Below, in pieces: positions 332 to 44,729 of a DNA stretch of 63,740 nt. The notes beneath the pieces were generated by a model. The model made no database searches and was not told the origin of the DNA. It saw only the letters and a list, made by a program, of their open reading frames with translations. Made by a program: the position numbers and the translations under genes. This DNA comes from a virus (lineage: Duplodnaviria; Caudoviricetes): IMG/VR virus record IMGVR_UViG_3300032330_001642, positions 1 through 63,740 of that record; one strand, 5' to 3'. Each line of letters opens with the position of its first letter. Within the stretch, counting starts at the first letter, position 1.

Positions 332-501
332 AATGTTAATTTGAGACAAAAGTAATTCTATTTTTTTAATTGGCCAAATTTATTTTAGATTTTTTTTACT
401 ACAACGATTACTTAAAATTTTTTTGGCATAATGTTTGACTTCGTGGTTTTAATAACCTATTTATTTAACGAACTTAAATATTAACTAAAAAAAAAAGTAT
501 T

Positions 502-11120: not shown

Positions 11121-11122
11121 TG

Positions 11123-11194
11123 TGGTCCCGGGGAATCACGATATCCCAACCTTTTCGTTATGAGCGAACTGCTCCACCTTTGAGCTACGAGACC
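11123..11194 (-). tRNA. tRNA-CAT (Ile2 or Met), atypical T-loop
   Basis: GGTCTCG/CGGGACC acceptor; TTCG-CTCATAA-CGAA anticodon arm; T-loop ATCGTGA. Confidence 0.8.
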
Positions 11195-11233
11195 AATTAT
11201 GGGTTTTTAGTGTACCCATAAACACTTGAATAA

Positions 11234-11464
11234 CTATTGGTGGTGTTTGATATACCTACCAAATTTATCAACCCTCACAGAGAGTTTCTCCAATCTAAAG
11301 TTCCATTGTTTGAACTTTCCTAAGCCCGATTTCATTCGTGCTTGTTTAATCGCAGATTCTTCTGCCTTCTCACGTCCGTCTTCCGTAGTTTCTACGAAAA
11401 ACGTGGGAGCCTGAACACCGTATCTCACGGGAACTACTCTCCAAATTCTCAATTTCTGAGTCAT
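11234..11464 (-). CDS. small basic protein behind a TAG-uORF/hairpin switch
   Basis: 76-aa ORF whose start abuts a hairpin containing the uORF stop. Confidence 0.7.
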   Translation of the reverse strand: MTQKLRIWRVVPVRYGVQAPTFFVETTEDGREKAEESAIKQARMKSGLGKFKQWNFRLEKLSVRVDKFGRYIKHHQ

Positions 11465-11484
11465 AATACTTGAATAATCAAGTA

Positions 11485-11514
11485 CTACGTGGAGTTTGGT
11501 TGTTGGTTTTTCAT
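11485..11514 (-). promoter_or_regulatory. uORF MKNQQPNST-TAG with its stop in a 10-bp hairpin
   Basis: TAGTACTTGA-TTAT-TCAAGTATTA ends on the A of the downstream ATG. Confidence 0.65.
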
Positions 11515-11648
11515 ATTAGTAATATAATCAATTAAATATAAATATCAAACATATGGAGGTCTATCTCCTCAACATTTTCATTGGTACTGTTTTATGTGTG
11601 CCTCACGTGATTACTAATGTCACTGTCGCTTTAATGTTTGAAATTTTG

Positions 11649-11728
11649 TATCCCCGGTGGGAGTCGAACCCACACGCCGAAGCAACAAGTTTTAAGCCTG
11701 TCGTGTATACCAGTTTCACCACGGGGAT
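11649..11728 (-). tRNA. tRNA-Leu(TAA)
   Basis: cloverleaf; loop CTTAAAA; long variable arm. Confidence 0.92.
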
Positions 11729-11948
11729 GTGTTTCCCCCAATGAGATTAGTTTGGGGTAGATATTCTCGGTTTTTCCTATTGAAATACCCTACGCGTCTT
11801 ACCGCTTAAAAAGTCAACCATTACTAGGAGGTGAGTTGGTAGTCTCCCTATTAACCCTAAGACCCCCTCTGTAAAACCGTTTGAGGCGTCAGCTACATCT
11901 TTGTTTAAGAAACGATGCCAAATCTGTTGAGTATCTCTCACTCAATTG

Positions 11949-12041
11949 TAGTCAGGACAGGACTCGAACCTGTAAGTACAGTTATACAGAACTGTGCATC
12001 CCTGTATGGATATTGCGTCTAACCAATTCCGCCACCCGACT
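11949..12041 (-). ncRNA. tRNA-Leu-like scaffold with non-canonical anticodon arm
   Basis: AGTCGGG-TGGCGGAATTGGTTAGACGC...ACAGG-TTCGAGT-CCTGT-CCTGACT; loop ATACAG is not a 7-nt anticodon loop. Confidence 0.7.
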
Positions 12042-12267
12042 ATATAGGACACGGGTTCGGTTTCCCCATATGTGTCCATACTTTTAGTAGTTGTGTTATT
12101 TTAAGAGAAATAACCCGGTACCCACCGAAGAACCCGTATTTTTTGTTCCGCACAAAAATTTGTAAAAAGGCCGTATTGTCGTTTAGTCTATTTCAACCGT
12201 CCGAGTTCTACATTTTACATCCAAGAACCCATACCCTCATACGAAGAGAACGAAAGTGGATGACCTG

Positions 12268-12344
12268 ATGGTAAGGTGGGATTCGAACCCACATCCTTTC
12301 GGCCAACTAAGACCGAACGCTTTCACCATTTGAGCTTCTTACCA
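12268..12344 (-). ncRNA. tRNA-like RNA with enlarged anticodon loop
   Basis: TGGTAAG/CTTACCA acceptor, canonical T arm, TTCGG-TCTTAGTTGG-CCGAA (10-nt loop). Confidence 0.7.
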
Positions 12345-12574
12345 AACATTTTGGAAAAACTGATGGTTACGTTTACCATCTTTGACTTGAGTTTGTCTTT
12401 ATCATTTTTCCGTTTTTTTTGAGAGATTTCCTCTTGAAGTAATGTCAATCTCGTCCTAAACCACACCATCCTTTCTTTTAAGGCTAAGAAACTTCTAACT
12501 ACCTATTTGTCCCCACTGATTTTTCTTAACCACAAAAAACAGACTCACAAACTGAACTCACAAAAAACGACTCG

Positions 12575-12691
12575 TGGATAGAGTAGGATTCGAACCTACA
12601 ATAGTACCATACTTTTTCACCTGCCGGTTACTTCAAGGACTCGAACCTCATATTCCGATGCCTCGGACGCTTTACCATTTACCACCTACCC
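12575..12691 (-). ncRNA. tRNA-like RNA with a second, nested T arm
   Basis: GGGTAGG/TCTATCC acceptor; internal GAGG-TTCGAGT-CCTT plus terminal GTAGG-TTCGAAT-CCTAC; no anticodon loop. Confidence 0.6.
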
Positions 12692-12697
12692 ATTTTG

Positions 12698-12769
12698 AGC
12701 TTCCACGAGGAATCGAACCCCGTTATCTTGTGTACAAAACAAGCACATCACCATTTATGTTTTGGAAGC
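12698..12769 (-). tRNA. tRNA-Thr(TGT)
   Basis: cloverleaf; CTTGT-TTTGTAC-ACAAG. Confidence 0.88.
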
Positions 12770-12995
12770 CTGTCGCAGAGTATTTTTTTAAAGTAGAAGT
12801 CAACTCTGTCTCTTAAACTACTTATTGGTACTGGCACGGTTTCGGCCGAAACTCGGATTTGTACTTCATCCACAGGAATACCTGTCGCCAATTTCTTTAA
12901 CATCATCACTTCGGCCACATTGGGAGAACCGCAGTTCCCACGTTGTTTAAGGAGGTAGTTGGCGGTGTATCACACCGAGTTATGATAATGTATTG

Positions 12996-13069
12996 TACCC
13001 CAGGAGGGACTTGAACCCTCAAAAAACAATTTCTAAGACTGCCGTGTCTACCTATTCCACCACCGGGGC
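12996..13069 (-). tRNA. tRNA-Leu(TAG) lacking a long variable arm
   Basis: class II-type D arm; loop CTTAGAA; variable region is only a short T run. Confidence 0.8.
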
Positions 13070-13183
13070 TTTTTGGTGGGGCTCGACCCCACCTGTTTGA
13101 ATTACTTGCGATATGCTCTCACCCTTTTTCACCCAACTAGTATTTAGTGTGTGAGACCAAACTACCCTCATTCAACCCTTTTG

Positions 13184-13256
13184 TACCCCCAACTGGATTT
13201 GAACCAATATCGGACATCTTAGAAGGATGTGGCATTTCCATTTATGCTATGGAGGC
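13184..13256 (-). tRNA. tRNA-Arg(TCT)
   Basis: ACATC-CTTCTAA-GATGT. Confidence 0.9.
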
Positions 13257-13433
13257 AATTAAAATACTGCTGTGGAGCATCACCACAATCCACTACAAGG
13301 TTTTCCCCACTTTGGGCTGGCCGACCCAGGTTATGCCCTTATACCTTAACCTACGATTCTCTGCAGTTACGTAGCTCACTCAGGTGTGTGATAACAGGTG
13401 CTTATTTCATACCTATTTACGTCGTATTTTTTG

Positions 13434-13506
13434 AGACGATAGTCGGATTCGAACCGACATTATTCCACATTGGAAGTGTGGTGCCATACCTTTAGGCGAT
13501 ACCGTC
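13434..13506 (-). tRNA. tRNA-Gly(TCC), atypical acceptor stem
   Basis: CCACA-CTTCCAA-TGTGG; acceptor GACGGTA/TATCGTC. Confidence 0.8.
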
Positions 13507-14176
13507 ATTTTTTCTTTATAACTCGACCTAATCTCCATCCTTTAGGGATTAAATCACCTTTATAAATTTTTTTATTATCTGAACCATTAGTAATCCAACA
13601 AGTTCCGTATTGGGAATTTTTATTACCTTTTTGTTTTATTGAATTTTTCTTACCAATATTTTTTTTAGATTCTTCTTTATGTTTTTTACCTTTGAATGTT
13701 GAATGATTAAAACCGATTTCTTTTAATCGTTTCTTTATTTTTTCACTGTTTTCTTTTTGGTCATTTTCACTTAAAGAATTTTGATAATTTTTTGATATTA
13801 TTTTTCTAAAATCTTTACCGTATTTTTTTTCTAATATCTCATCAGTTATTCTTCTACCTTTTTTAACGGCTTTTAGATTAACAAAACCCCCTTGACCACC
13901 TTCTTTGAGATTCATACATAATTTATCTGTTAATAAAATTTTATTAACAATTTCACTCTCTCTAATTATCAGTTTTTCTCTTGTTGGTAAAAATTCTAAA
14001 ATTTCTTTTATATGATTTTCTTTCCCATACTTTCTAATAGAATATCTCAATCTTTTACCACTCCCTAAATAACCATCCTCTAAATTAGAGGTACTGTGCA
14101 TACCTATGTAATATCTTTTAGTTATATTACAAATTGTCTTGTAAATATAATGTATGTGAGGTTTTTTTCTTCCCAT
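13505..14176 (-). mobile_element. free-standing GIY-YIG homing endonuclease (Seg-like) with NUMOD3-like motif
   Basis: YIYKTICNITKRYYIGMH..YLGSG; FKGKKHKEESKKNIG; sits between two tRNA-Gly genes. Confidence 0.88.
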
Positions 14177-14233
14177 TTTGTCCTTTTATTATAAATATCT
14201 TAACCCATAGTAAAAGTACAAAAAAGTTCTCGG

Positions 14234-14305
14234 AGCGAGTAGAGAGAATCAAACTCTCGTCCTTAGGTTGGAAGCCTAATATAATAATCACTATACGATA
14301 CTCGC
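14234..14305 (-). tRNA. tRNA-Gly(TCC)
   Basis: GCGAGTA acceptor; TTAGG-CTTCCAA-CCTAA. Confidence 0.9.
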
Positions 14306-14391
14306 AGTTAAGATGAACTTCGGACTTGTGTACCGAATGAGACCCTTTAATTAAATCACTAACCCCGGGTGCGGTCTATTCATCTATTTTT

Positions 14392-14565
14392 TTATAACTT
14401 AGATTGGAGAATCCCCATCTCTTTTTCGATTCTTTTCTTATCAGAATCTGTTAATGGAACTTTTACGTCCCTTGTACCTTTTTGTGTTTTCACACCACTT
14501 TTCAGTTGGTGTTCTAACATAGACAATACTCTTGATTGTCTTGACCTTTGTTGAACTGTCGCCAT
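14392..14565 (-). CDS. small basic hypothetical protein (57 aa)
   Basis: MATVQQRSRQSRVLSMLEHQLKSG...; below ORF-track cutoff. Confidence 0.6.
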   Translation of the reverse strand: MATVQQRSRQSRVLSMLEHQLKSGVKTQKGTRDVKVPLTDSDKKRIEKEMGILQSKL

Positions 14566-14591
14566 ACGTTGGTTTTTAGATTAATAATTAG

Positions 14592-14664
14592 TAGCGGGAG
14601 GAGGACTCGAACCTCCGACCTTATGGTTATGAGCCACACGAGCTGCCAACTGCTCTATCCCACG
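14592..14664 (-). tRNA. tRNA-Met(CAT), initiator-like
   Basis: C1:T72 mismatch and fMet-like D arm; only two G-C pairs at the base of the anticodon stem. Confidence 0.85.
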
Positions 14665-14678
14665 ATGTTTATTCTTAG

Positions 14679-14748
14679 TAGCGTAGCGTGGACTCGAACC
14701 ACCCCCCAAGCTTATGAGACTTAGATGCAACCTTTACACTTTAACGCA
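14679..14748 (-). tRNA. degenerate tRNA-Met(CAT)
   Basis: loop CTCATAA and T arm present; weak acceptor pairing. Confidence 0.55.
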
Positions 14749-14758
14749 ATTTATTGTT

Positions 14759-14882
14759 TGTAATTAACATAGGCGGAACTCAAATCCTCTTACTCTTGTT
14801 TCCACGTTACCATATCATAAATTACCGAAGGATTATCCGTAACTTATTAGGCTCTCCCGCTAAGGACATTATGTTAATTACA
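14759..14882 (-). ncRNA. candidate structured RNA closed by a 13-bp stem
   Basis: TGTAATTAACATA/TATGTTAATTACA terminal inverted repeat. Confidence 0.5.
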
Positions 14883-14886
14883 TTTT

Positions 14887-14994
14887 GCTGATTAGTAAGG
14901 ATTTGAACCTTAATCCTCCTTCCCTTGTTGCCGTACATAATCTAGGGACTCGAACCCTAGCGGGGGATGGTGTGCACCATTACACTATAATCAA
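14887..14994 (-). ncRNA. tRNA-like RNA with a T-arm hairpin in place of the anticodon arm
   Basis: TTGATTA/TAATCAG acceptor, GTGT/ACAC D stem, internal CTAGGG-TTCGAGT-CCCTAG, terminal TAAGG-TTCAAAT-CCTTA. Confidence 0.6.
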
Positions 14995-15043
14995 TCGATG
15001 GTTTCGAACCCATCAGTCATAGGTTAATTACTCCTATGGTTTG

Positions 15044-15115
15044 CGGTCTATGAGAGAATCGAACTCTCATCTCTACCGTGACAGGGTAGCATCCTAGCCG
15101 TTGAACGAATAGACC
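15044..15115 (-). tRNA. tRNA-Asp(GTC)
   Basis: CTACC-CTGTCAC-GGTAG. Confidence 0.92.
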
Positions 15116-15244
15116 AAAATTACCTTTACATTTCAAAGGTTAATCAGGTTTAGTTGTGAACTTTCCTTTCAGTCGTTGTCTCATTTTTTTACGGGTCTTG
15201 TTATACGACAATTTCAACACATTGACCATACGTGTTGACAATCG

Positions 15245-15315
15245 TGGACACAGTGGGAATCGAACCCAAAACAATCTGATTGCAAATCAGTTGGACTGCC
15301 GTTGTCATCTGGCCC
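15245..15315 (-). tRNA. tRNA-Ala(TGC), irregular
   Basis: loop TTTGCAA; G3:U70 present; bulged acceptor. Confidence 0.7.
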
Positions 15316-15320
15316 ATACG

Positions 15321-15499
15321 ACACTTTATCAGATAGTGAGAAACTGGCTTTGTGTATTAAGGGAACACGATATGCTTAAAACCTCTTGTAGCCCCACCGG
15401 GAGTCGAACCCGACTTTTATGGATGAAAACCATATGTCCTAACCGATAGACGATAGGGCCAAATAACACTTTATCAGATAGTGAGAAACTGGCCTTGTG
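15321..15499. repeat. 28-bp identical repeat (15321-15348, 15466-15493) downstream of each tRNA-Glu
   Basis: ACACTTTATCAGATAGTGAGAAACTGGC occurs twice. Confidence 0.9.
15389..15460 (-). tRNA. tRNA-Glu(TTC)
   Basis: TATGG-TTTTCAT-CCATA. Confidence 0.92.
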
Positions 15500-15531
15500 C
15501 AATTAATGGGACACGTGGCTCATAACCATTG

Positions 15532-15603
15532 TAGCCCGTACGGGTTTCGAACCCGTGCCTCCTGATAGAAAGTCAGACGTGTTTACCTCTTCACTAACGG
15601 GCC
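15532..15603 (-). tRNA. tRNA-Glu(TTC)
   Basis: TCTGA-CTTTCTA-TCAGG. Confidence 0.88.
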
Positions 15604-15611
15604 ATTTTGTA

Positions 15612-15660
15612 TTACCAATATTTCAAATAACTTGTTTCTTTTTGATGGTACAAAGATAAT
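15612..15660 (-). promoter_or_regulatory. Bacteroidota-type promoter (TATCTTTG) plus boxA-like leader of tRNA operon A
   Basis: TAnnTTTG at 15651-15658; 25-mer AACAAGTTATTTGAAATATTGGTAA identical to 21672-21696. Confidence 0.7.
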
Positions 15661-15699
15661 ACTTTATTTCATTATACCAAACTTTTTTTAATCTTTTTT

Positions 15700-15852
15700 T
15701 TATCCTTCTCTATCTTCGATAGAAAACCCTGCACTATCGTATTCAGGTCCTTGGTCTTCTTCCGGAGTGACATTTACCAATCCGTATGTTACACCTAATA
15801 TGGGCGAATATTCCATCCCTAACTCTTCATTCATCGTTTTTTTGTCCGACAT
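15700..15852 (-). CDS. small acidic hypothetical protein (50 aa)
   Basis: MSDKKTMNEELGMEYSP...; TATCTTTG upstream. Confidence 0.5.
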   Translation of the reverse strand: MSDKKTMNEELGMEYSPILGVTYGLVNVTPEEDQGPEYDSAGFSIEDREG

Positions 15853-15915
15853 AATAATTACATTTTTAATTCGATACAAAGATAATACTTTTTTTTAATT
15901 CTCCAAATATAATGT

Positions 15916-15945
15916 AAAAAAAAATCCATCTCTTTTGGAGATGGA
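15916..15945 (-). terminator. attenuator terminator of leader A
   Basis: TCCATCTC-CAAAA-GAGATGGA followed by T9. Confidence 0.85.
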
Positions 15946-15980
15946 CCTTATCAGTTATTATTATGTTACTTAACAATACA

Positions 15981-16055
15981 TCATACCATCTCCGACCGAG
16001 TTGTATCTCTACCCTCCGCTCCTGTTAATAATAGTATTGTATTTAATGTTTGCAT
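15981..16055 (-). promoter_or_regulatory. leader peptide A (MQTLNTILLLTGAEGRDTTRSEMV)
   Basis: 24-aa ORF before the terminator; GGAGATGG is complementary to the terminator 5' arm; codons match operon A tRNAs. Confidence 0.8.
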
Positions 16056-16134
16056 TTTCTGTGTTATTGTAATTTTCTAATAAATATATACCTTTTTATA
16101 AAAGTGTCAAGTATTGGTAAAAAAAATTATAAAA

Positions 16135-16345
16135 AAAGTTTAACAACCCCGCCCTCGGGTCGTAGCGGGCAACTTGAGAATTACTTCTCGTGGGAATTCC
16201 GGAATTGGTTGTGTTCCTCACCGGCGTACCAGTCCTTATCTATCCTTTACCGTATTTATACGGTGCTACTGTTGGGAGGTCACCCCTATCAACACAACTA
16301 GTCCATTAGTTTTTAAGAGTATGGACACCCCGGTTGTTAAACTTT
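16135..16345 (-). ncRNA. candidate ~210-nt structured RNA
   Basis: 14-bp closing stem AAAGTTTAACAACC/GGTTGTTAAACTTT, GC-rich internal hairpins, no convincing ORF. Confidence 0.55.
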
Positions 16346-16353
16346 TTATTTTG

Positions 16354-16500
16354 TAAAAACAGACAGAATGATTTTCCGATATTTATCTTAGGGGCATCCT
16401 AGCAGTCACTCTACTTACCCTCGGCGGTCTCTTGGTTTGATTGACAATTCCAAACCTCACATCCATATTACCACTGATGTAAGTTATAGGTCTGTTTTTA
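16354..16500 (-). ncRNA. candidate structured RNA
   Basis: 11-bp closing stem TAAAAACAGAC/GTCTGTTTTTA. Confidence 0.45.
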
Positions 16501-16568
16501 TTTCTTCAGGAGAGACCCCCAAGGGATAACCATAACGGAATTACCCTTGACTCACTCTCCGTCTTCTG

Positions 16569-16637
16569 CACGCCATCAAAGAATCGAACTCTGTCCTATG
16601 GGTTTGGAATCCATTTGGCTACCTTAGCCTATGACGT
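16569..16637 (-). tRNA. tRNA-Trp(CCA)
   Basis: ATGGA-TTCCAAA-CCCAT; short D arm. Confidence 0.75.
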
Positions 16638-16784: not shown

Positions 16785-17384
16785 TTAATCTAAACTACTT
16801 GGTAAATAAAGTAGTGTTGGATTTTTCTTTTGGATATCAACATCCGGGTAAAGTTTCTTAAACTCCAATACGTTGAACTTTCCGGTGATTATATGAAAAC
16901 CATTTTTTGTTGGAATCACTTTTTCAACTTTATTACCTACCGGTTGTATGTCATCTAAATCATTTAAGATTTTAATTAAAAACTTTTGGTCTGTAGTATC
17001 AACATCAACAATCCATCTTTTTTCCTGTGTTTTGATTTGACCCACAACCGAATCAAATAAACCCTTTTGGTTTTTTACACCATTTTTAATTCTCTCAGCT
17101 AACGACATCATCATTTCTAATGAAACATCCATATGGTTTTGTTTCTGAACGTGGATGTAAGCTCTTGCCTTGAACATCTCACATAATTGTTTGATTTCAT
17201 CGTATCTCTTATCAAGATGTTCTATACTATCAATACAATATGTTTTGATTGTTCTAACCGATTGGTGATTATCTCTCTCACCTTCAGGTTGGTCTTTCTT
17301 TCTCTTGAAAACGTATAACATATAGAAATCGTTTTTGTCCGAGAAATTCAGTAATTCTTTGATTTCTTTTATATTATCTATCAT
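16785..17384 (-). CDS. hypothetical protein, possible AEP primase-like fold
   Basis: WIVDVD and PTKNGFH motifs. Confidence 0.5.
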   Translation of the reverse strand: MIDNIKEIKELLNFSDKNDFYMLYVFKRKKDQPEGERDNHQSVRTIKTYCIDSIEHLDKRYDEIKQLCEMFKARAYIHVQKQNHMDVSLEMMMSLAERIKNGVKNQKGLFDSVVGQIKTQEKRWIVDVDTTDQKFLIKILNDLDDIQPVGNKVEKVIPTKNGFHIITGKFNVLEFKKLYPDVDIQKKNPTLLYLPSSLD

Positions 17385-18486: not shown

Positions 18487-18542
18487 ATCTTTCCGTTTTA
18501 ATTTTGACAAAGATACAACTAAATTTTAATCTGCCAAATTTT

Positions 18543-19049
18543 TTAGAATAATAAATATGGTTCCCATTCTTCCGGGATGTAATGAACCTGTCTCATCAAC
18601 ATTAAATAATGTGGTCGTCTTGGTTGAGGGATTTCTTTTCCATACTCCTCTAACGTTAAATTTGACTTCTCACTATTACATTTTCTACAAGCGGTTACCA
18701 AGTTGTCCCACGCGTCTTTACCACCCTTAGATTGGGGTATTACGTGGTCTAATGTCAAAGTTTTACGATTGTCACACCCACAATAAACACAGGTATAACC
18801 ATCTCTTCTATAAACATTCTCTCTGTTCAAAGGAACTTTATGAATCGGTTGATTCACATATTTGTAAACCCTAATAATTGAAGGTTTTTTGATATCCAAT
18901 TCAGGATTGATTAACTTGAATGATTCCGGATGTTCGGCAATAACACTTGCATTACCTTTATAAGAAATTACAAAAGCCCTCTCAGTGTTTATGATAGACC
19001 TTGGCATAAAACTTGAATCCAAAACCAATGTTTTTCCGTACTTACTCAC
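18543..19049 (-). CDS. HNH endonuclease (McrA-like)
   Basis: RDGYTCVYCG, LTLDHVIP, WDNLVTACRKCN. Confidence 0.9.
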   Translation of the reverse strand: MSKYGKTLVLDSSFMPRSIINTERAFVISYKGNASVIAEHPESFKLINPELDIKKPSIIRVYKYVNQPIHKVPLNRENVYRRDGYTCVYCGCDNRKTLTLDHVIPQSKGGKDAWDNLVTACRKCNSEKSNLTLEEYGKEIPQPRRPHYLMLMRQVHYIPEEWEPYLLF

Positions 19050-21671: not shown

Positions 21672-21722
21672 TTACCAATATTTCAAATAACTTGTTCCTT
21701 TATTTTGATGGGACAAAGGTAA
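21672..21722 (-). promoter_or_regulatory. Bacteroidota-type promoter (TACCTTTG) plus boxA-like leader of tRNA operon B
   Basis: TAnnTTTG at 21714-21721; 25-mer identical to 15612-15636. Confidence 0.7.
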
Positions 21723-21753
21723 TCCTTTTTTTTTAACTTTCAAACTTTTTTAC

Positions 21754-21789
21754 AAAAAAAAATCCTGAACTTTTTAGATTCAGGATTTT
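21754..21789 (-). terminator. attenuator terminator of leader B
   Basis: AAAATCCTGAA-TCTAAAAAG-TTCAGGATTTT followed by a T tract. Confidence 0.85.
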
Positions 21790-21811
21790 GGTATATGGTT
21801 ATGTTAACTTC

Positions 21812-21934
21812 TTATATAGTTGTCAAGTCATCCAATAAAACATCTGAATCTGTATGCGAGGTACGCGGATACGAACAATTACTAAATTGTTGTTTCCAAA
21901 TCACGACGTTCATATGTTTATTAGTGTTTCTCAT
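21812..21934 (-). promoter_or_regulatory. leader peptide B (MRNTNKHMNVVIWKQQFSNCSYPRTSHTDSDVLLDDLTTI)
   Basis: 40-aa ORF before the terminator; AGATTCAG is complementary to terminator CTGAATCT; codons match operon B tRNAs. Confidence 0.8.
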
Positions 21935-22028
21935 TTTTTCTAAATTTTGTGGTATCTCTACCTGTTGTTTCTTATAATTATATCAAACTTACGAAAAGTT
22001 TAATAAAAGTCAAATATTTTTTTTTATT

Positions 22029-22941: not shown

Positions 22942-22981
22942 AGGGCAAATATATTACTTTTTTTTATAACACCAAAAAAAA

Positions 22982-26469: not shown

Positions 26470-26529
26470 ATTTAGATAAATATTTTGGTAATTAAAAAAA
26501 AAGTAATATATTTGCTAAAAATAAACATT

Positions 26530-44675: not shown

Positions 44676-44729
44676 ATTAATAGTTTTATAAAGTACAAAG
44701 ATACAAAAACTATTTAATATACCAAATAA

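What the first reader, a model, noticed from the sequence alone, without database searches (positions are those of the whole stretch)
15916..16055. Leader A: T-I(ATA)-L(CTA)-L(TTA)-L-T-G-A-E-G-R(AGA)-D-T-T matches operon A
Minus-strand ORF: ATG CAA ACA TTA AAT ACA ATA CTA TTA TTA ACA GGA GCG GAG GGT AGA GAT ACA ACT CGG TCG GAG ATG GTA TGA. Codons 6-19 all specify amino acids served by downstream tRNAs (Thr-TGT, Ile2-CAT, Leu-TAG, Leu-TAA, Gly-TCC, Ala-TGC, Glu-TTC, Arg-TCT, Asp-GTC). GGAGATGG just before the stop (15986-15993) is perfectly complementary to CCATCTCC in the terminator 5' arm (15937-15944). A ribosome reaching the stop would mask it and allow termination; one stalled earlier would not. 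The ATA codon also predicts that the 11123-11194 CAT tRNA is lysidine-type Ile2.
Basis: partly seen in the sequence, partly recalled or inferred. Interest (0 to 1): 0.9.

Follow-up and report, generated by a model that had tools for sequence, protein, structure and literature searches.

The report
Codon-matched leader peptide before phage tRNAs
A 24-codon mini-gene with a switchable terminator sits in front of a phage tRNA gene cluster and is built from the codons those same tRNAs read, which suggests the phage measures its tRNA supply and adjusts tRNA production to match.

Summary
ORF 16055-15981 (-), the terminator and the GGAGATGG/CCATCTCC complementarity are all as described.

It is not chance. 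In a six-frame scan of the contig, the leader A run (14 codons, 9 cluster-A tRNA species) is the richest cluster-A run. A second leader at 21934-21812 is the richest cluster-B run.

Related viral contigs hold 24 distinct leader modules, and 22 of them carry a codon for every tRNA species of their own cluster. Examples are an L/S/H/Y leader before a Tyr-Ser-His-Leu cluster and an N/P/A/G/D leader before Pro-Asn-Asp-Gly-Ala.

All 9 module types examined keep a copy of the terminator's 3' arm in or just after the ORF, using unrelated sequences. In three types the first tRNA starts 5-16 nt after the terminator.

Best reading: ribosome-mediated transcription attenuation that feeds back on tRNA supply.

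Caveats:
- In this window two promoter-like sites lie between the leader A terminator and the tRNAs.
- No experiment exists.
- The Ile2 (lysidine-type isoleucine tRNA) prediction is unresolved.
- Eight literature searches found no prior report.

The parts
16081..16111 (-). Promoter P1 of leader A: cTTG, 19 nt, TATATTTA. The sigma-70-type scan also reads it as TTGACA-16-TATATT.
   Evidence: The TTGAC and TATATTTA blocks are conserved in the 13 aligned (distinct) relatives while the spacer varies. The Bacteroidota-type consensus TTTG-N19-TAnnTTTG is recalled from memory, not taken from a call.
15981..16055 (-). Leader A ORF: 24 codons plus TGA, MQTLNTILLLTGAEGRDTTRSEMV.
   Evidence: An ORF of 23-24 codons with the same start and the same last codons (ATG GTA TGA) is kept in 13 of 13 distinct relatives. 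The order of the residues is permuted, but the composition is kept.
15999..16040 (-). Sensing run, codons 6-19: 14 consecutive codons that cover 9 tRNA species of cluster A.
   Evidence: It is the richest such run in all six frames of the contig.
15995..16019 (-). Hairpin 1, inside the ORF. It contains the 11-mer GGTAGAGATAC, which also occurs in the 5' UTR of leader B. Function unknown; it may be a pause or stabilising hairpin.
   Evidence: 94.2% of cells paired. L012 keeps a hairpin here with a different inner stem. The 11-mer occurs exactly twice in the window, at 16013-16003 and 21962-21952.
15986..15993 (-). Region 2, the antiterminator 5' strand: GGAGATGG, 10 to 3 nt before the stop codon.
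   Evidence: 98.1% of cells paired; 6 of 8 pairs invariant.
15937..15945 (-). Terminator 5' arm (15945-15938) plus the first loop base. It is shared by the terminator and the antiterminator.
15916..15932 (-). Terminator 3' arm GAGATGGA (15932-15925) and the run of nine T (15924-15916).
   Evidence: 98.7% of cells paired; pair 148-154 changes C-G to U-A in 3 sequences.
15877..15907 (-). P2: a consensus promoter-like site directly after the terminator.
   Evidence: 12 matches in the window against 2.49 expected. Conserved in relatives.
15700..15852 (-). Conserved small ORF of 50 codons between P2 and P3. Function unknown.
   Evidence: the motif YSPILGV.YGL recurs in 12 loci. No Pfam match. One RNA-library contig joins 15917 to 15688 and so lacks this piece.
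15651..15681 (-). P3: a consensus promoter-like site followed by the shared pre-tRNA leader, just upstream of the first tRNA-Glu.
11122..15603 (-). tRNA cluster A: Glu x2, Ala (weak), Asp, CAT, Gly, a 223-codon ORF, Gly, Arg-TCT, Leu-TAG, Thr-TGT, three atypical tRNA-like genes, Leu-TAA, CAT.
21759..22014 (-). The sister module, leader B. It consists of promoter 22014-21984, a 40-codon ORF at 21934-21812, region 2 AGATTCAG at 21851-21844, and terminator 21789-21759. It is followed by P2 at 21744-21714 and by tRNA cluster B (21663-16568).

Best explanation
Leader A is the sensing part of a ribosome-mediated transcription attenuator placed in front of a phage tRNA gene cluster.

Proposed mechanism:
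- Transcription starts at P1, and the 24-codon ORF is translated as it emerges.
- Codons 6-17 carry at least one codon for each of the 9 tRNA species encoded downstream.
- If any of these aminoacyl-tRNAs is scarce, the ribosome stalls there. GGAGATGG at the end of the ORF then stays free and pairs with CCATCTCC, the 5' arm of the terminator. The terminator cannot form, and RNA polymerase reads on towards the tRNA genes.
- If all of these tRNAs are plentiful, the ribosome reaches the stop codon and covers GGAGATGG. The terminator hairpin forms and transcription ends at the T run.

The result is negative feedback on the supply of exactly those tRNAs. It works as an OR gate over many tRNA species.

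What is shown:
- the anatomy;
- its conservation;
- the statistical and comparative link between leader codons and cluster content;
- the conserved alternative pairing.

What is inferred:
- that the ORF is translated;
- that stalling decides termination;
- the direction of the response.

In this window the tRNAs also have promoter-like sites of their own (P2, P3). Read-through would therefore add to a basal level of transcription, not replace it.
For: (1) Codon match in the window. Leader A and leader B are each the single richest same-cluster codon run in six frames: 9 species against a next best of 7, and 13 against a next best of 11. Random-ORF simulations give 59 of 200,000 for A and 113 of 200,000 for B, and 0 real-gene windows for either.

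(2) Generality. A rule-based scan of all fetched loci with 3 or more tRNAs on one strand found 24 distinct leader modules. 22 of the 24 carry a codon for every tRNA species of their own cluster, and 11 further copies with an identical leader were skipped.

(3) Leader content follows cluster content.
- L147: a leader core of L, S, H and Y only precedes Tyr, Ser(tga), His, Ser(gct), Leu(taa), Leu(tag), Leu(caa).
- L050: a core NPAPANGDGN precedes Pro, Asn, Asp, Gly, Ala.
- L049: a leader with TTA x5, CTN x3 and AGA x4 precedes Leu(taa), Arg(tct), Leu(tag).
- L049/L046: a B-like leader has gained E and lost N and P, as its cluster has.
- L118: the leader core lacks V, K and R, and the cluster lacks Val, Lys and Arg tRNAs.
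- L172: a 19-amino-acid leader precedes 18 tRNA species.
- L012: tRNA-Arg(tct) sits in cluster B. It is the only leader A without AGA, and its leader B has AGA at codon 6.

(4) Coding constraint. A 23-24 codon ORF is kept in 13 of 13 leader A relatives. Residues are permuted but the composition is kept, and a 3-nt deletion in L012 keeps the frame.

(5) Switch.
- With the 3' arm left out, the 5' arm pairs with region 2 at p 0.86-1.0 (5 to 8 of the 8 pairs) in 13 of 13 relatives.
- The terminator and antiterminator folds of the full leader differ by 3.1 kcal/mol (-29.5 against -26.4).
- All 9 module types have a 6-10 bp complement of the 5' arm in or just after the ORF. At least four of these sequences are unrelated: GGAGATGG, the GTTCAG/GTTCGG group, ATTGAATCGG and AGTTAGGGG.
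- Leader B shows compensatory changes between region 2 and the arm or loop bases.

(6) In L050, L172 and L147 the first tRNA starts 5, 8 and 16 nt after the T run. There, tRNA transcription must pass through the terminator.
Against: - In the window, two consensus promoter-like sites and a conserved small ORF lie between the leader A terminator and the first tRNA. The tRNAs could therefore be made without read-through.
- Within the leader A family the antiterminator has almost no covariation: 6 of 8 pairs never vary. In L005/L007/L077 and L004, non-synonymous changes weaken it to 5-6 contiguous pairs.
- Single-module shuffle tests of the complement are weak for some types: 116 of 1,000 for L049_C and 342 of 1,000 for L118.
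- 5 of the 23 non-start codons of leader A are not cluster-A codons. GGT and ACT need four-way wobble, ATA needs an unproven lysidine tRNA, and the Ala tRNA is a weak call.
- The match is not perfect elsewhere. L012's two leaders each miss one species. In L013, leader B keeps TGG, AAA and AGT although no Trp, Lys or Ser(gct) tRNA was detected in its cluster.
- 15 clusters had no module by my rules. Six of them lie at a locus edge and two are truncated clusters. The other seven (six distinct: L038, L050 at 7437, L061/L063, L066, L076, L132) have none.
- In leader B-type modules region 2 lies 15-42 nt before the stop codon. A terminating ribosome would not cover it, so a region 1:2 helix has to be invoked.
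- There is no evidence of translation or of regulated termination. RNA-library contigs bridge both terminators, but contigs show neither transcript ends nor that the material was RNA.
Confidence: 0.72

Rival explanations
1. The leader is a self-contained transcription unit (P1, mini-ORF, terminator) that does not control the tRNA genes in cis. The tRNAs are made from P2/P3. The codon-matched mini-mRNA serves another output: a trans-acting small RNA released at the terminator, a reporter of tRNA supply coupled to RNA stability, or a sink for particular tRNAs.
For: - Consensus promoter-like sites lie downstream of both leader terminators in the window, and in L012_A and L118.
- The terminator is strong: 11-12 pairs followed by nine T.
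- Attenuator RNAs that act in trans are described for trpL of Sinorhizobium (abstracts seen in the listings).
Against: - In L050, L172 and L147 only 5-16 nt separate the T run from the first tRNA, and L049's two modules have no consensus promoter in between. There the terminator sits in the path of tRNA transcription.
- This reading needs no antiterminator, yet a conserved copy of the 3' arm sits inside the ORF in 9 of 9 module types.
Confidence: 0.12
2. The leader RNA senses tRNAs directly, without ribosomes. The in-frame codons would act as a row of specifier triplets that pair with anticodons, as in a T-box riboswitch.
For: The codon content matches the tRNA set, and an antiterminator/terminator pair is present.
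Against: - There is no Rfam match at E up to 1 in 15880-16580, and only tRNA matches at gathering score anywhere in the window.
- The triplets lie in one open frame with an ATG and a stop in 13 of 13 relatives, and an indel keeps the frame.
- No acceptor-binding bulge is evident.
Confidence: 0.04
3. The ORF encodes a functional micropeptide. The tRNA match is a by-product of its composition.
For: The ORF and its last codons are conserved.
Against: - The residue order is permuted between relatives (TILLLTGA, TLLLTIGA, ILLTIAGT), and unrelated leaders differ completely in composition, each matching its own cluster.
- The leader B tails vary in length and sequence.
Confidence: 0.03
4. Chance: an ordinary terminator that insulates the tRNA promoters, with an accidental ORF and an accidental repeat upstream.
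For: The contig is AT-rich and full of small ORFs. The sigma-70-type promoter scan finds no excess over shuffles (52 found, 51.7 expected).
Against:: top-ranked runs, simulation counts of 0 to 59 per 20,000-200,000 for most modules, and recurrence in independent module types.
Confidence: 0.02

Closest known systems
Leader-peptide transcription attenuators of amino-acid biosynthetic operons (trp, his, leu, pheA, and the multivalent thr and ilvGMEDA leaders of enterobacteria). Recalled from established knowledge.
   Same: - A short translated ORF lies between the promoter and an intrinsic terminator.
- The regulatory codons sit upstream of an element that can pair with the terminator's 5' arm.
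- Ribosome position decides between antiterminator and terminator.
- Leader B also has a region 1:2 helix.
   Different: - The genes downstream are tRNA genes, not biosynthetic enzymes.
- The leader does not repeat one to three amino acids. It lists about one codon for each of 3 to 18 tRNA species of the adjacent cluster.
- Leader A has no clear region 1.
- The element is phage-borne, and in this window further promoter-like sites follow the terminator.
- There is no Rfam leader-family match.
The pheM leader of the pheST (phenylalanyl-tRNA synthetase) operon of E. coli. Recalled.
   Same: Leader-peptide attenuation used to regulate a component of the translation machinery according to the supply of charged tRNA.
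   Different: It senses one tRNA species and regulates a synthetase. Here many species are sensed and the tRNA genes themselves are the target.
T-box riboswitches
   Same: They sense tRNA status and choose between an antiterminator and a terminator upstream of translation-related genes.
   Different: A T-box binds one uncharged tRNA directly, through a specifier codon and the T-box bulge, without ribosomes. Here there is an open reading frame, no T-box match, and many tRNA species.
tRNA gene clusters of large phages (T4, T5, mycobacteriophages and others). Recalled.
   Same: Phage-encoded sets of tRNAs arranged in arrays.
   Different: I know of no codon-matched leader ORF or attenuator described for them. 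Eight full-text searches found none. GenBank phages hold no match to leader B. In the 2.5 kb around leader A only tRNA genes matched.

Membership tests
Ribosome-mediated (leader-peptide) transcription attenuator | A short ORF with a start and a stop codon lies between a promoter and the regulated genes, and is conserved as an ORF. | tested here: met
   13 of 13 relatives keep 23-24 codons. P1 is conserved.
Ribosome-mediated (leader-peptide) transcription attenuator | The ORF is enriched in codons whose decoding reports on the product of the regulated genes. | tested here: met
   18 of 23 non-start codons are cognate, all 9 species are covered, and 22 of 24 modules have complete coverage.
Ribosome-mediated (leader-peptide) transcription attenuator | An intrinsic terminator (a G+C-containing hairpin followed by a U run) lies downstream of the ORF. 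| tested here: met
Ribosome-mediated (leader-peptide) transcription attenuator | A mutually exclusive antiterminator uses the terminator's 5' arm. | tested here: met
   By prediction only. Little covariation within family A; supported across module types.
Ribosome-mediated (leader-peptide) transcription attenuator | The antiterminator strand is placed so that a ribosome finishing the ORF masks it and one stalled at the regulatory codons does not. | tested here: met
   Region 2 lies 10 to 3 nt before the stop codon. The footprint arithmetic rests on recalled ribosome dimensions.
Ribosome-mediated (leader-peptide) transcription attenuator | A region 1:2 (pause or anti-antiterminator) helix. | tested here: inconclusive
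   For leader A there is only an A/U-rich pairing in the minimum-energy fold, and hairpin 1 does not involve region 2. It is present in leader B.
Ribosome-mediated (leader-peptide) transcription attenuator | The regulated genes depend on read-through, with no promoter after the terminator. | tested here: not met
   In the window, P2 and P3 follow the terminator. The feature is met in L050, L172 and L147, where the gaps are 5-16 nt.
Ribosome-mediated (leader-peptide) transcription attenuator | Termination responds to the supply of charged tRNA. | not testable with these tools
   RNA-library contigs cannot show transcript ends or levels.
Rfam leader families and T-box (His/Leu/Thr/Trp leaders, T-box) | A match to the family covariance model. 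| tested here: not met
   no match at E up to 1 in 15880-16580.

The most novel reading that the evidence does not exclude
A modular, evolvable tRNA homeostat in phages. Each tRNA gene cluster carries its own leader peptide that lists, roughly codon by codon, the tRNA species of that cluster. Shortage of any one of them opens transcription of the whole cluster, whether the shortage comes from demand during infection or from host nucleases that cut tRNAs. When tRNA genes move between clusters, the leaders are rewritten to match. This would be the first attenuator whose regulated products are the sensed molecules themselves, and the most multivalent leader peptide known, with up to 18 species in one ORF.
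Probability: 0.5. Interest if true: 0.95.

Novelty: new variant of a known kind. Interest (0 to 1): 0.88.

Why it matters
How phages control their own tRNA genes is essentially unknown. These genes are usually treated as constitutive cargo.

A leader peptide that samples every tRNA of the adjacent cluster would have three consequences:
- Phages would be seen to monitor translational capacity codon by codon.
- There would be a direct, testable link between phage tRNA sets and stress on the host tRNA pool, including anticodon-nuclease defences.
- The classical attenuation principle would extend from one to three amino acids to as many as 18 tRNA species, with the sensed molecule as the product.

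The leaders also give a sequence-only readout of which tRNAs a phage treats as one regulatory unit. They offer compact natural parts for tRNA-responsive switches.

Tried and rejected
- GenBank phages: only tRNA genes matched a 2.5 kb query around leader A. Leader B found nothing as protein or as DNA.
- Two cultured phages were inspected. Flavobacterium phage immuto has four tRNAs and no leader module. In Cellulophaga phage phi17:2, no tRNA is annotated in the 40 kb around the homologue of the 199-aa protein. No cultured carrier was found.
Most loci it returned had fewer than two tRNAs; ten of them listed two or more, and those entered the survey.
- Rfam gave nothing in 15880-16580.
- Metatranscriptome runs hold only 7-14% of the words of the 10 kb stretch. 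The four runs laid are contigs. They cover and bridge both leader terminators (X2 15795-16060; X5 21694-21891), but they cannot show transcript ends, strand or level, and DNA may be present in these libraries. I draw no conclusion on termination from them.
- The Ile2 question was not decided. The two CAT tRNAs fall into two conserved types. Neither is closer to the phage Ile-GAT tRNA in a telling way (49 and 43 identities), and relatives with only one type or the other all keep ATA in the leader.
- Pfam gave no function for the 50-codon ORF, the 223-codon ORF or the 199-aa protein. The last had only a below-cutoff match.
- I rejected the idea that the match merely reflects general phage codon usage. 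The match is specific to each cluster, and the off-diagonal coverage is mostly much lower.
- Supplementary files of papers were not consulted.

Full report
**What is there**

The window is a 63.7 kb contig of about 33% G+C, and it is the whole assembly held. It carries 29 ARAGORN tRNA genes on the minus strand, in two groups. Rfam finds 28 tRNA matches.

At the reported place the minus strand reads, in order:
- a promoter-like site (16111-16081);
- an A-rich 5' UTR;
- an ATG at 16055 that opens the 24-codon ORF MQTLNTILLLTGAEGRDTTRSEMV, with its stop at 15983-15981;
- 35 nt of spacer;
- an intrinsic terminator, with stem 15945-15938 paired to 15932-15925 and nine T.

GGAGATGG (15993-15986) is the exact complement of CCATCTCC (15944-15937).

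**The codon match is not chance**

I assigned each sense codon to tRNA cluster A (15603-11122) or cluster B (21663-16568) by anticodon. I let U34 read whole four-codon boxes and let CAT read ATG and ATA. On that assignment, codons 6-19 of the ORF are 14 consecutive cluster-A codons that cover 9 species.

A six-frame scan of the whole contig examined 27,946 A-type runs and 30,353 B-type runs. This run is the only A-type run with 8 or more species; the next best has 7. The richest B-type run (16 codons, 13 of 14 species; next best 11) lies in a second small ORF at 21934-21812. That ORF sits between a consensus promoter and a terminator, directly upstream of cluster B.

Taking whole ORFs without choosing windows, 59 of 200,000 (A) and 113 of 200,000 (B) random ORFs with the contig's codon usage reach the observed coverage and cognate count. 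So do 0 of 4,122 (A) and 0 of 3,873 (B) real-gene windows.

**Relatives**

The 199-aa protein encoded between the clusters brought in 75 viral-contig loci. Leader A is found in 17 of them, as 12 distinct sequences besides the window's own. Leader B is found in 6, as 5 distinct sequences.

All 13 distinct leader A sequences keep a 23-24 codon ORF with the same start and the same last codons. The residues in the sensing run are permuted (TILLLTGA, TLLLTIGA, ILLTIAGT) while the set of codon classes is kept. This pattern fits selection on codon content, not on a peptide sequence.

More distant contigs carry leaders of quite different composition, each matching its own cluster:

| Locus | Leader | Cluster that follows |
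|---|---|---|
| L147 | core of L, S, H, Y only | Tyr, Ser(tga), His, Ser(gct), Leu(taa), Leu(tag), Leu(caa) |
| L050 | core NPAPANGDGN | Pro, Asn, Asp, Gly, Ala |
| L049 (first module) | TTA x5, CTN x3, AGA x4 | Leu(taa), Arg(tct), Leu(tag) |
| L049/L046 | B-like, with E, without N and P | has Glu and Met tRNAs, lacks Asn and Pro |
| L118 | core lacks V, K, R | lacks Val, Lys and Arg tRNAs |
| L172 | 19 different amino acids | 18 species |

A rule-based scan of every fetched locus with at least 3 tRNAs on a strand found 24 distinct modules. A module was an ORF of 15-60 codons, a terminator within 90 nt, and a tRNA within 700 nt. 22 of the 24 have a codon for every species of their cluster, and 11 identical duplicates were skipped.

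Fifteen clusters had no module. Six lie at a locus edge and two are truncated. The other seven (six distinct: L038, L050 at 7437, L061/L063, L066, L076, L132) really have none by these rules.

In L012 the tRNA-Arg(tct) gene sits in cluster B. That locus has the only leader A without AGA, and its leader B carries AGA at codon 6.

The match is not perfect. In L013, leader B keeps TGG, AAA and AGT although no matching tRNA was detected.

**The switch**

With the 3' arm left out, as when it is not yet transcribed, the terminator's 5' arm pairs with region 2 at p 0.86-1.0 (5 to 8 of the 8 pairs) in 13 of 13 leader A sequences. In the full leader, the terminator fold (-29.5 kcal/mol) and the fold with the antiterminator enforced (-26.4) are close in energy.

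On the alignment of the 13 sequences:
- The terminator is paired in 98.7% of cells, with one compensatory pair (C-G to U-A in three sequences).
- The antiterminator is paired in 98.1% of cells, but 6 of its 8 pairs never vary. The family itself therefore says little for or against it, and three lineages weaken it.

The stronger argument comes from other modules. All 9 module types examined have a 6-10 bp complement of the terminator's 5' arm in or just after the ORF, from 42 nt before to 11 nt after the first base of the stop codon. The sequences are unrelated: GGAGATGG, AGATTCAG, AGTTCGG, ATTGAATCGG, AGTTAGGGG and others. Shuffles reached the observed match in 5 to 342 of 1,000 trials per module.

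Leader B shows two compensatory changes between region 2 and the arm or loop bases of its terminator, and it has a region 1:2 helix as in trp.

Inside the window, the two leader terminators have an 8-base Watson-Crick complement within 110 nt upstream, out of 23 terminator-like sites. One other site ties their score only through a match with 6 G-T pairs. The best all-Watson-Crick match elsewhere is 6.

**Geometry for leader A**

This part is inference and uses recalled footprint sizes. Region 2 is ORF nt 63-70. A ribosome with the stop codon in its A site covers it. A ribosome with its A site at codons 6-16 ends upstream of it, and one at codon 17 touches a single base. All 9 species have a codon at or before position 17.

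**Complications in this window**

Twelve matches to TTTG-N18-20-TAnnTTTG occur in the window, against 2.49 expected. Two of them lie between the leader A terminator and tRNA-Glu: 15907-15877 and 15681-15651. They flank a 50-codon ORF that is conserved in relatives. One further match follows the leader B terminator. One RNA-library contig represents a relative that lacks 15689-15916.

Here, then, read-through can only add to transcription from these promoters. By contrast, in L050, L172 and L147 the first tRNA begins 5, 8 and 16 nt after the T run, and L049's two modules have no consensus promoter in between. I take the promoter-leader-terminator-tRNA order to be the basic design, and the extra promoters to be additions in this lineage. 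That is inference.

**Known systems and novelty**

The mechanism class is classical leader-peptide attenuation. The membership features tested are met, with three exceptions:
- dependence on read-through is not met in this window;
- a region 1:2 helix is unclear for leader A;
- the physiological response is not testable here.

It is not a T-box or any Rfam leader family.

What is new is the target, tRNA genes, so that the product is the sensed molecule. The sensor design is also new: about one codon per tRNA species of the cluster, for 3 to 18 species, rewritten as clusters change.

Eight full-text searches found no description of this. I saw listings and abstracts, plus one passage of PMC3082878 that proved irrelevant. 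The library lacks most subscription journals, and supplements were closed.

**Open points**

- There is no evidence of translation or of regulated termination.
- Which CAT tRNA reads ATA is undecided.
- The role of the shared GGTAGAGATAC hairpin is unknown.
- No cultured phage with such a module was found.

Noticed in passing
window 16142-16339 (-): A roughly 200-nt non-coding stretch lies between tRNA-Trp and leader A. Its two ends are complementary, and it ends in a terminator-like site (16163-16143). It has a high summed depth in RNA-library contigs. One contig joins 16339 back to 16142, as a circle or a tandem copy would. There is no Rfam match.
   Followed up: partly
window 16003-16013 and 21952-21962 (-): The 11-mer GGTAGAGATAC, a small hairpin with a GAGA loop, occurs exactly twice in the window: inside the leader A ORF and in the 5' UTR of leader B. 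In the fetched loci, 26 of 29 matches to it (or to its G-to-A variant) lie in these two kinds of leader. The more distant module types lack it. Its function is unknown.
   Followed up: partly
window 11948-12041, 12267-12344, 12575-12691 (-): Three atypical tRNA-like genes sit in cluster A. One has an 8-base anticodon loop, which ARAGORN reads as a four-letter anticodon. One has a two-letter anticodon call. One is a 117-nt Rfam tRNA match at 29.4 bits. Relatives carry similar odd calls at the same place.
   Followed up: no
window 15700-15852 (-): A conserved 50-codon acidic ORF lies between two promoter-like sites, downstream of the leader A terminator. The motif YSPILGV.YGL recurs in 12 loci. 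It has no Pfam match, and at least one relative seen in an RNA-library contig lacks it.
   Followed up: partly
window 15620-15650 and 21683-21713 (-): A shared stretch of about 30 nt, ending in TTATTTGAAATATTGGTAA, lies just upstream of the first tRNA of both clusters. It is also found in relatives. It may be a processing or promoter-proximal element.
   Followed up: no
window 13505-14176 (-) and 18543-19049 (-): Protein genes are embedded in the tRNA arrays. A 223-codon ORF lies between two tRNA-Gly copies and has no Pfam match. An HNH endonuclease (Pfam E 1.9e-16) lies in cluster B. Both look like mobile insertions.
   Followed up: partly
window 347-378, 18508-18538, 22946-22976, 26484-26514, 44696-44726 and others: A family of near-identical promoter-like sites: TTTGG, an A-rich spacer, then TAtCTTTG. 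There are 12 matches to the consensus against 2.49 expected. The two leader promoters share a different upstream half, TTGAC followed by TTTTAT.
   Followed up: partly
L192 (Cellulophaga phage phi17:2) 20001-21356: The homologue of the window's 199-aa protein (16785-17384) lies next to an annotated tRNA nucleotidyltransferase. This hints that the family has to do with tRNA.
   Followed up: no
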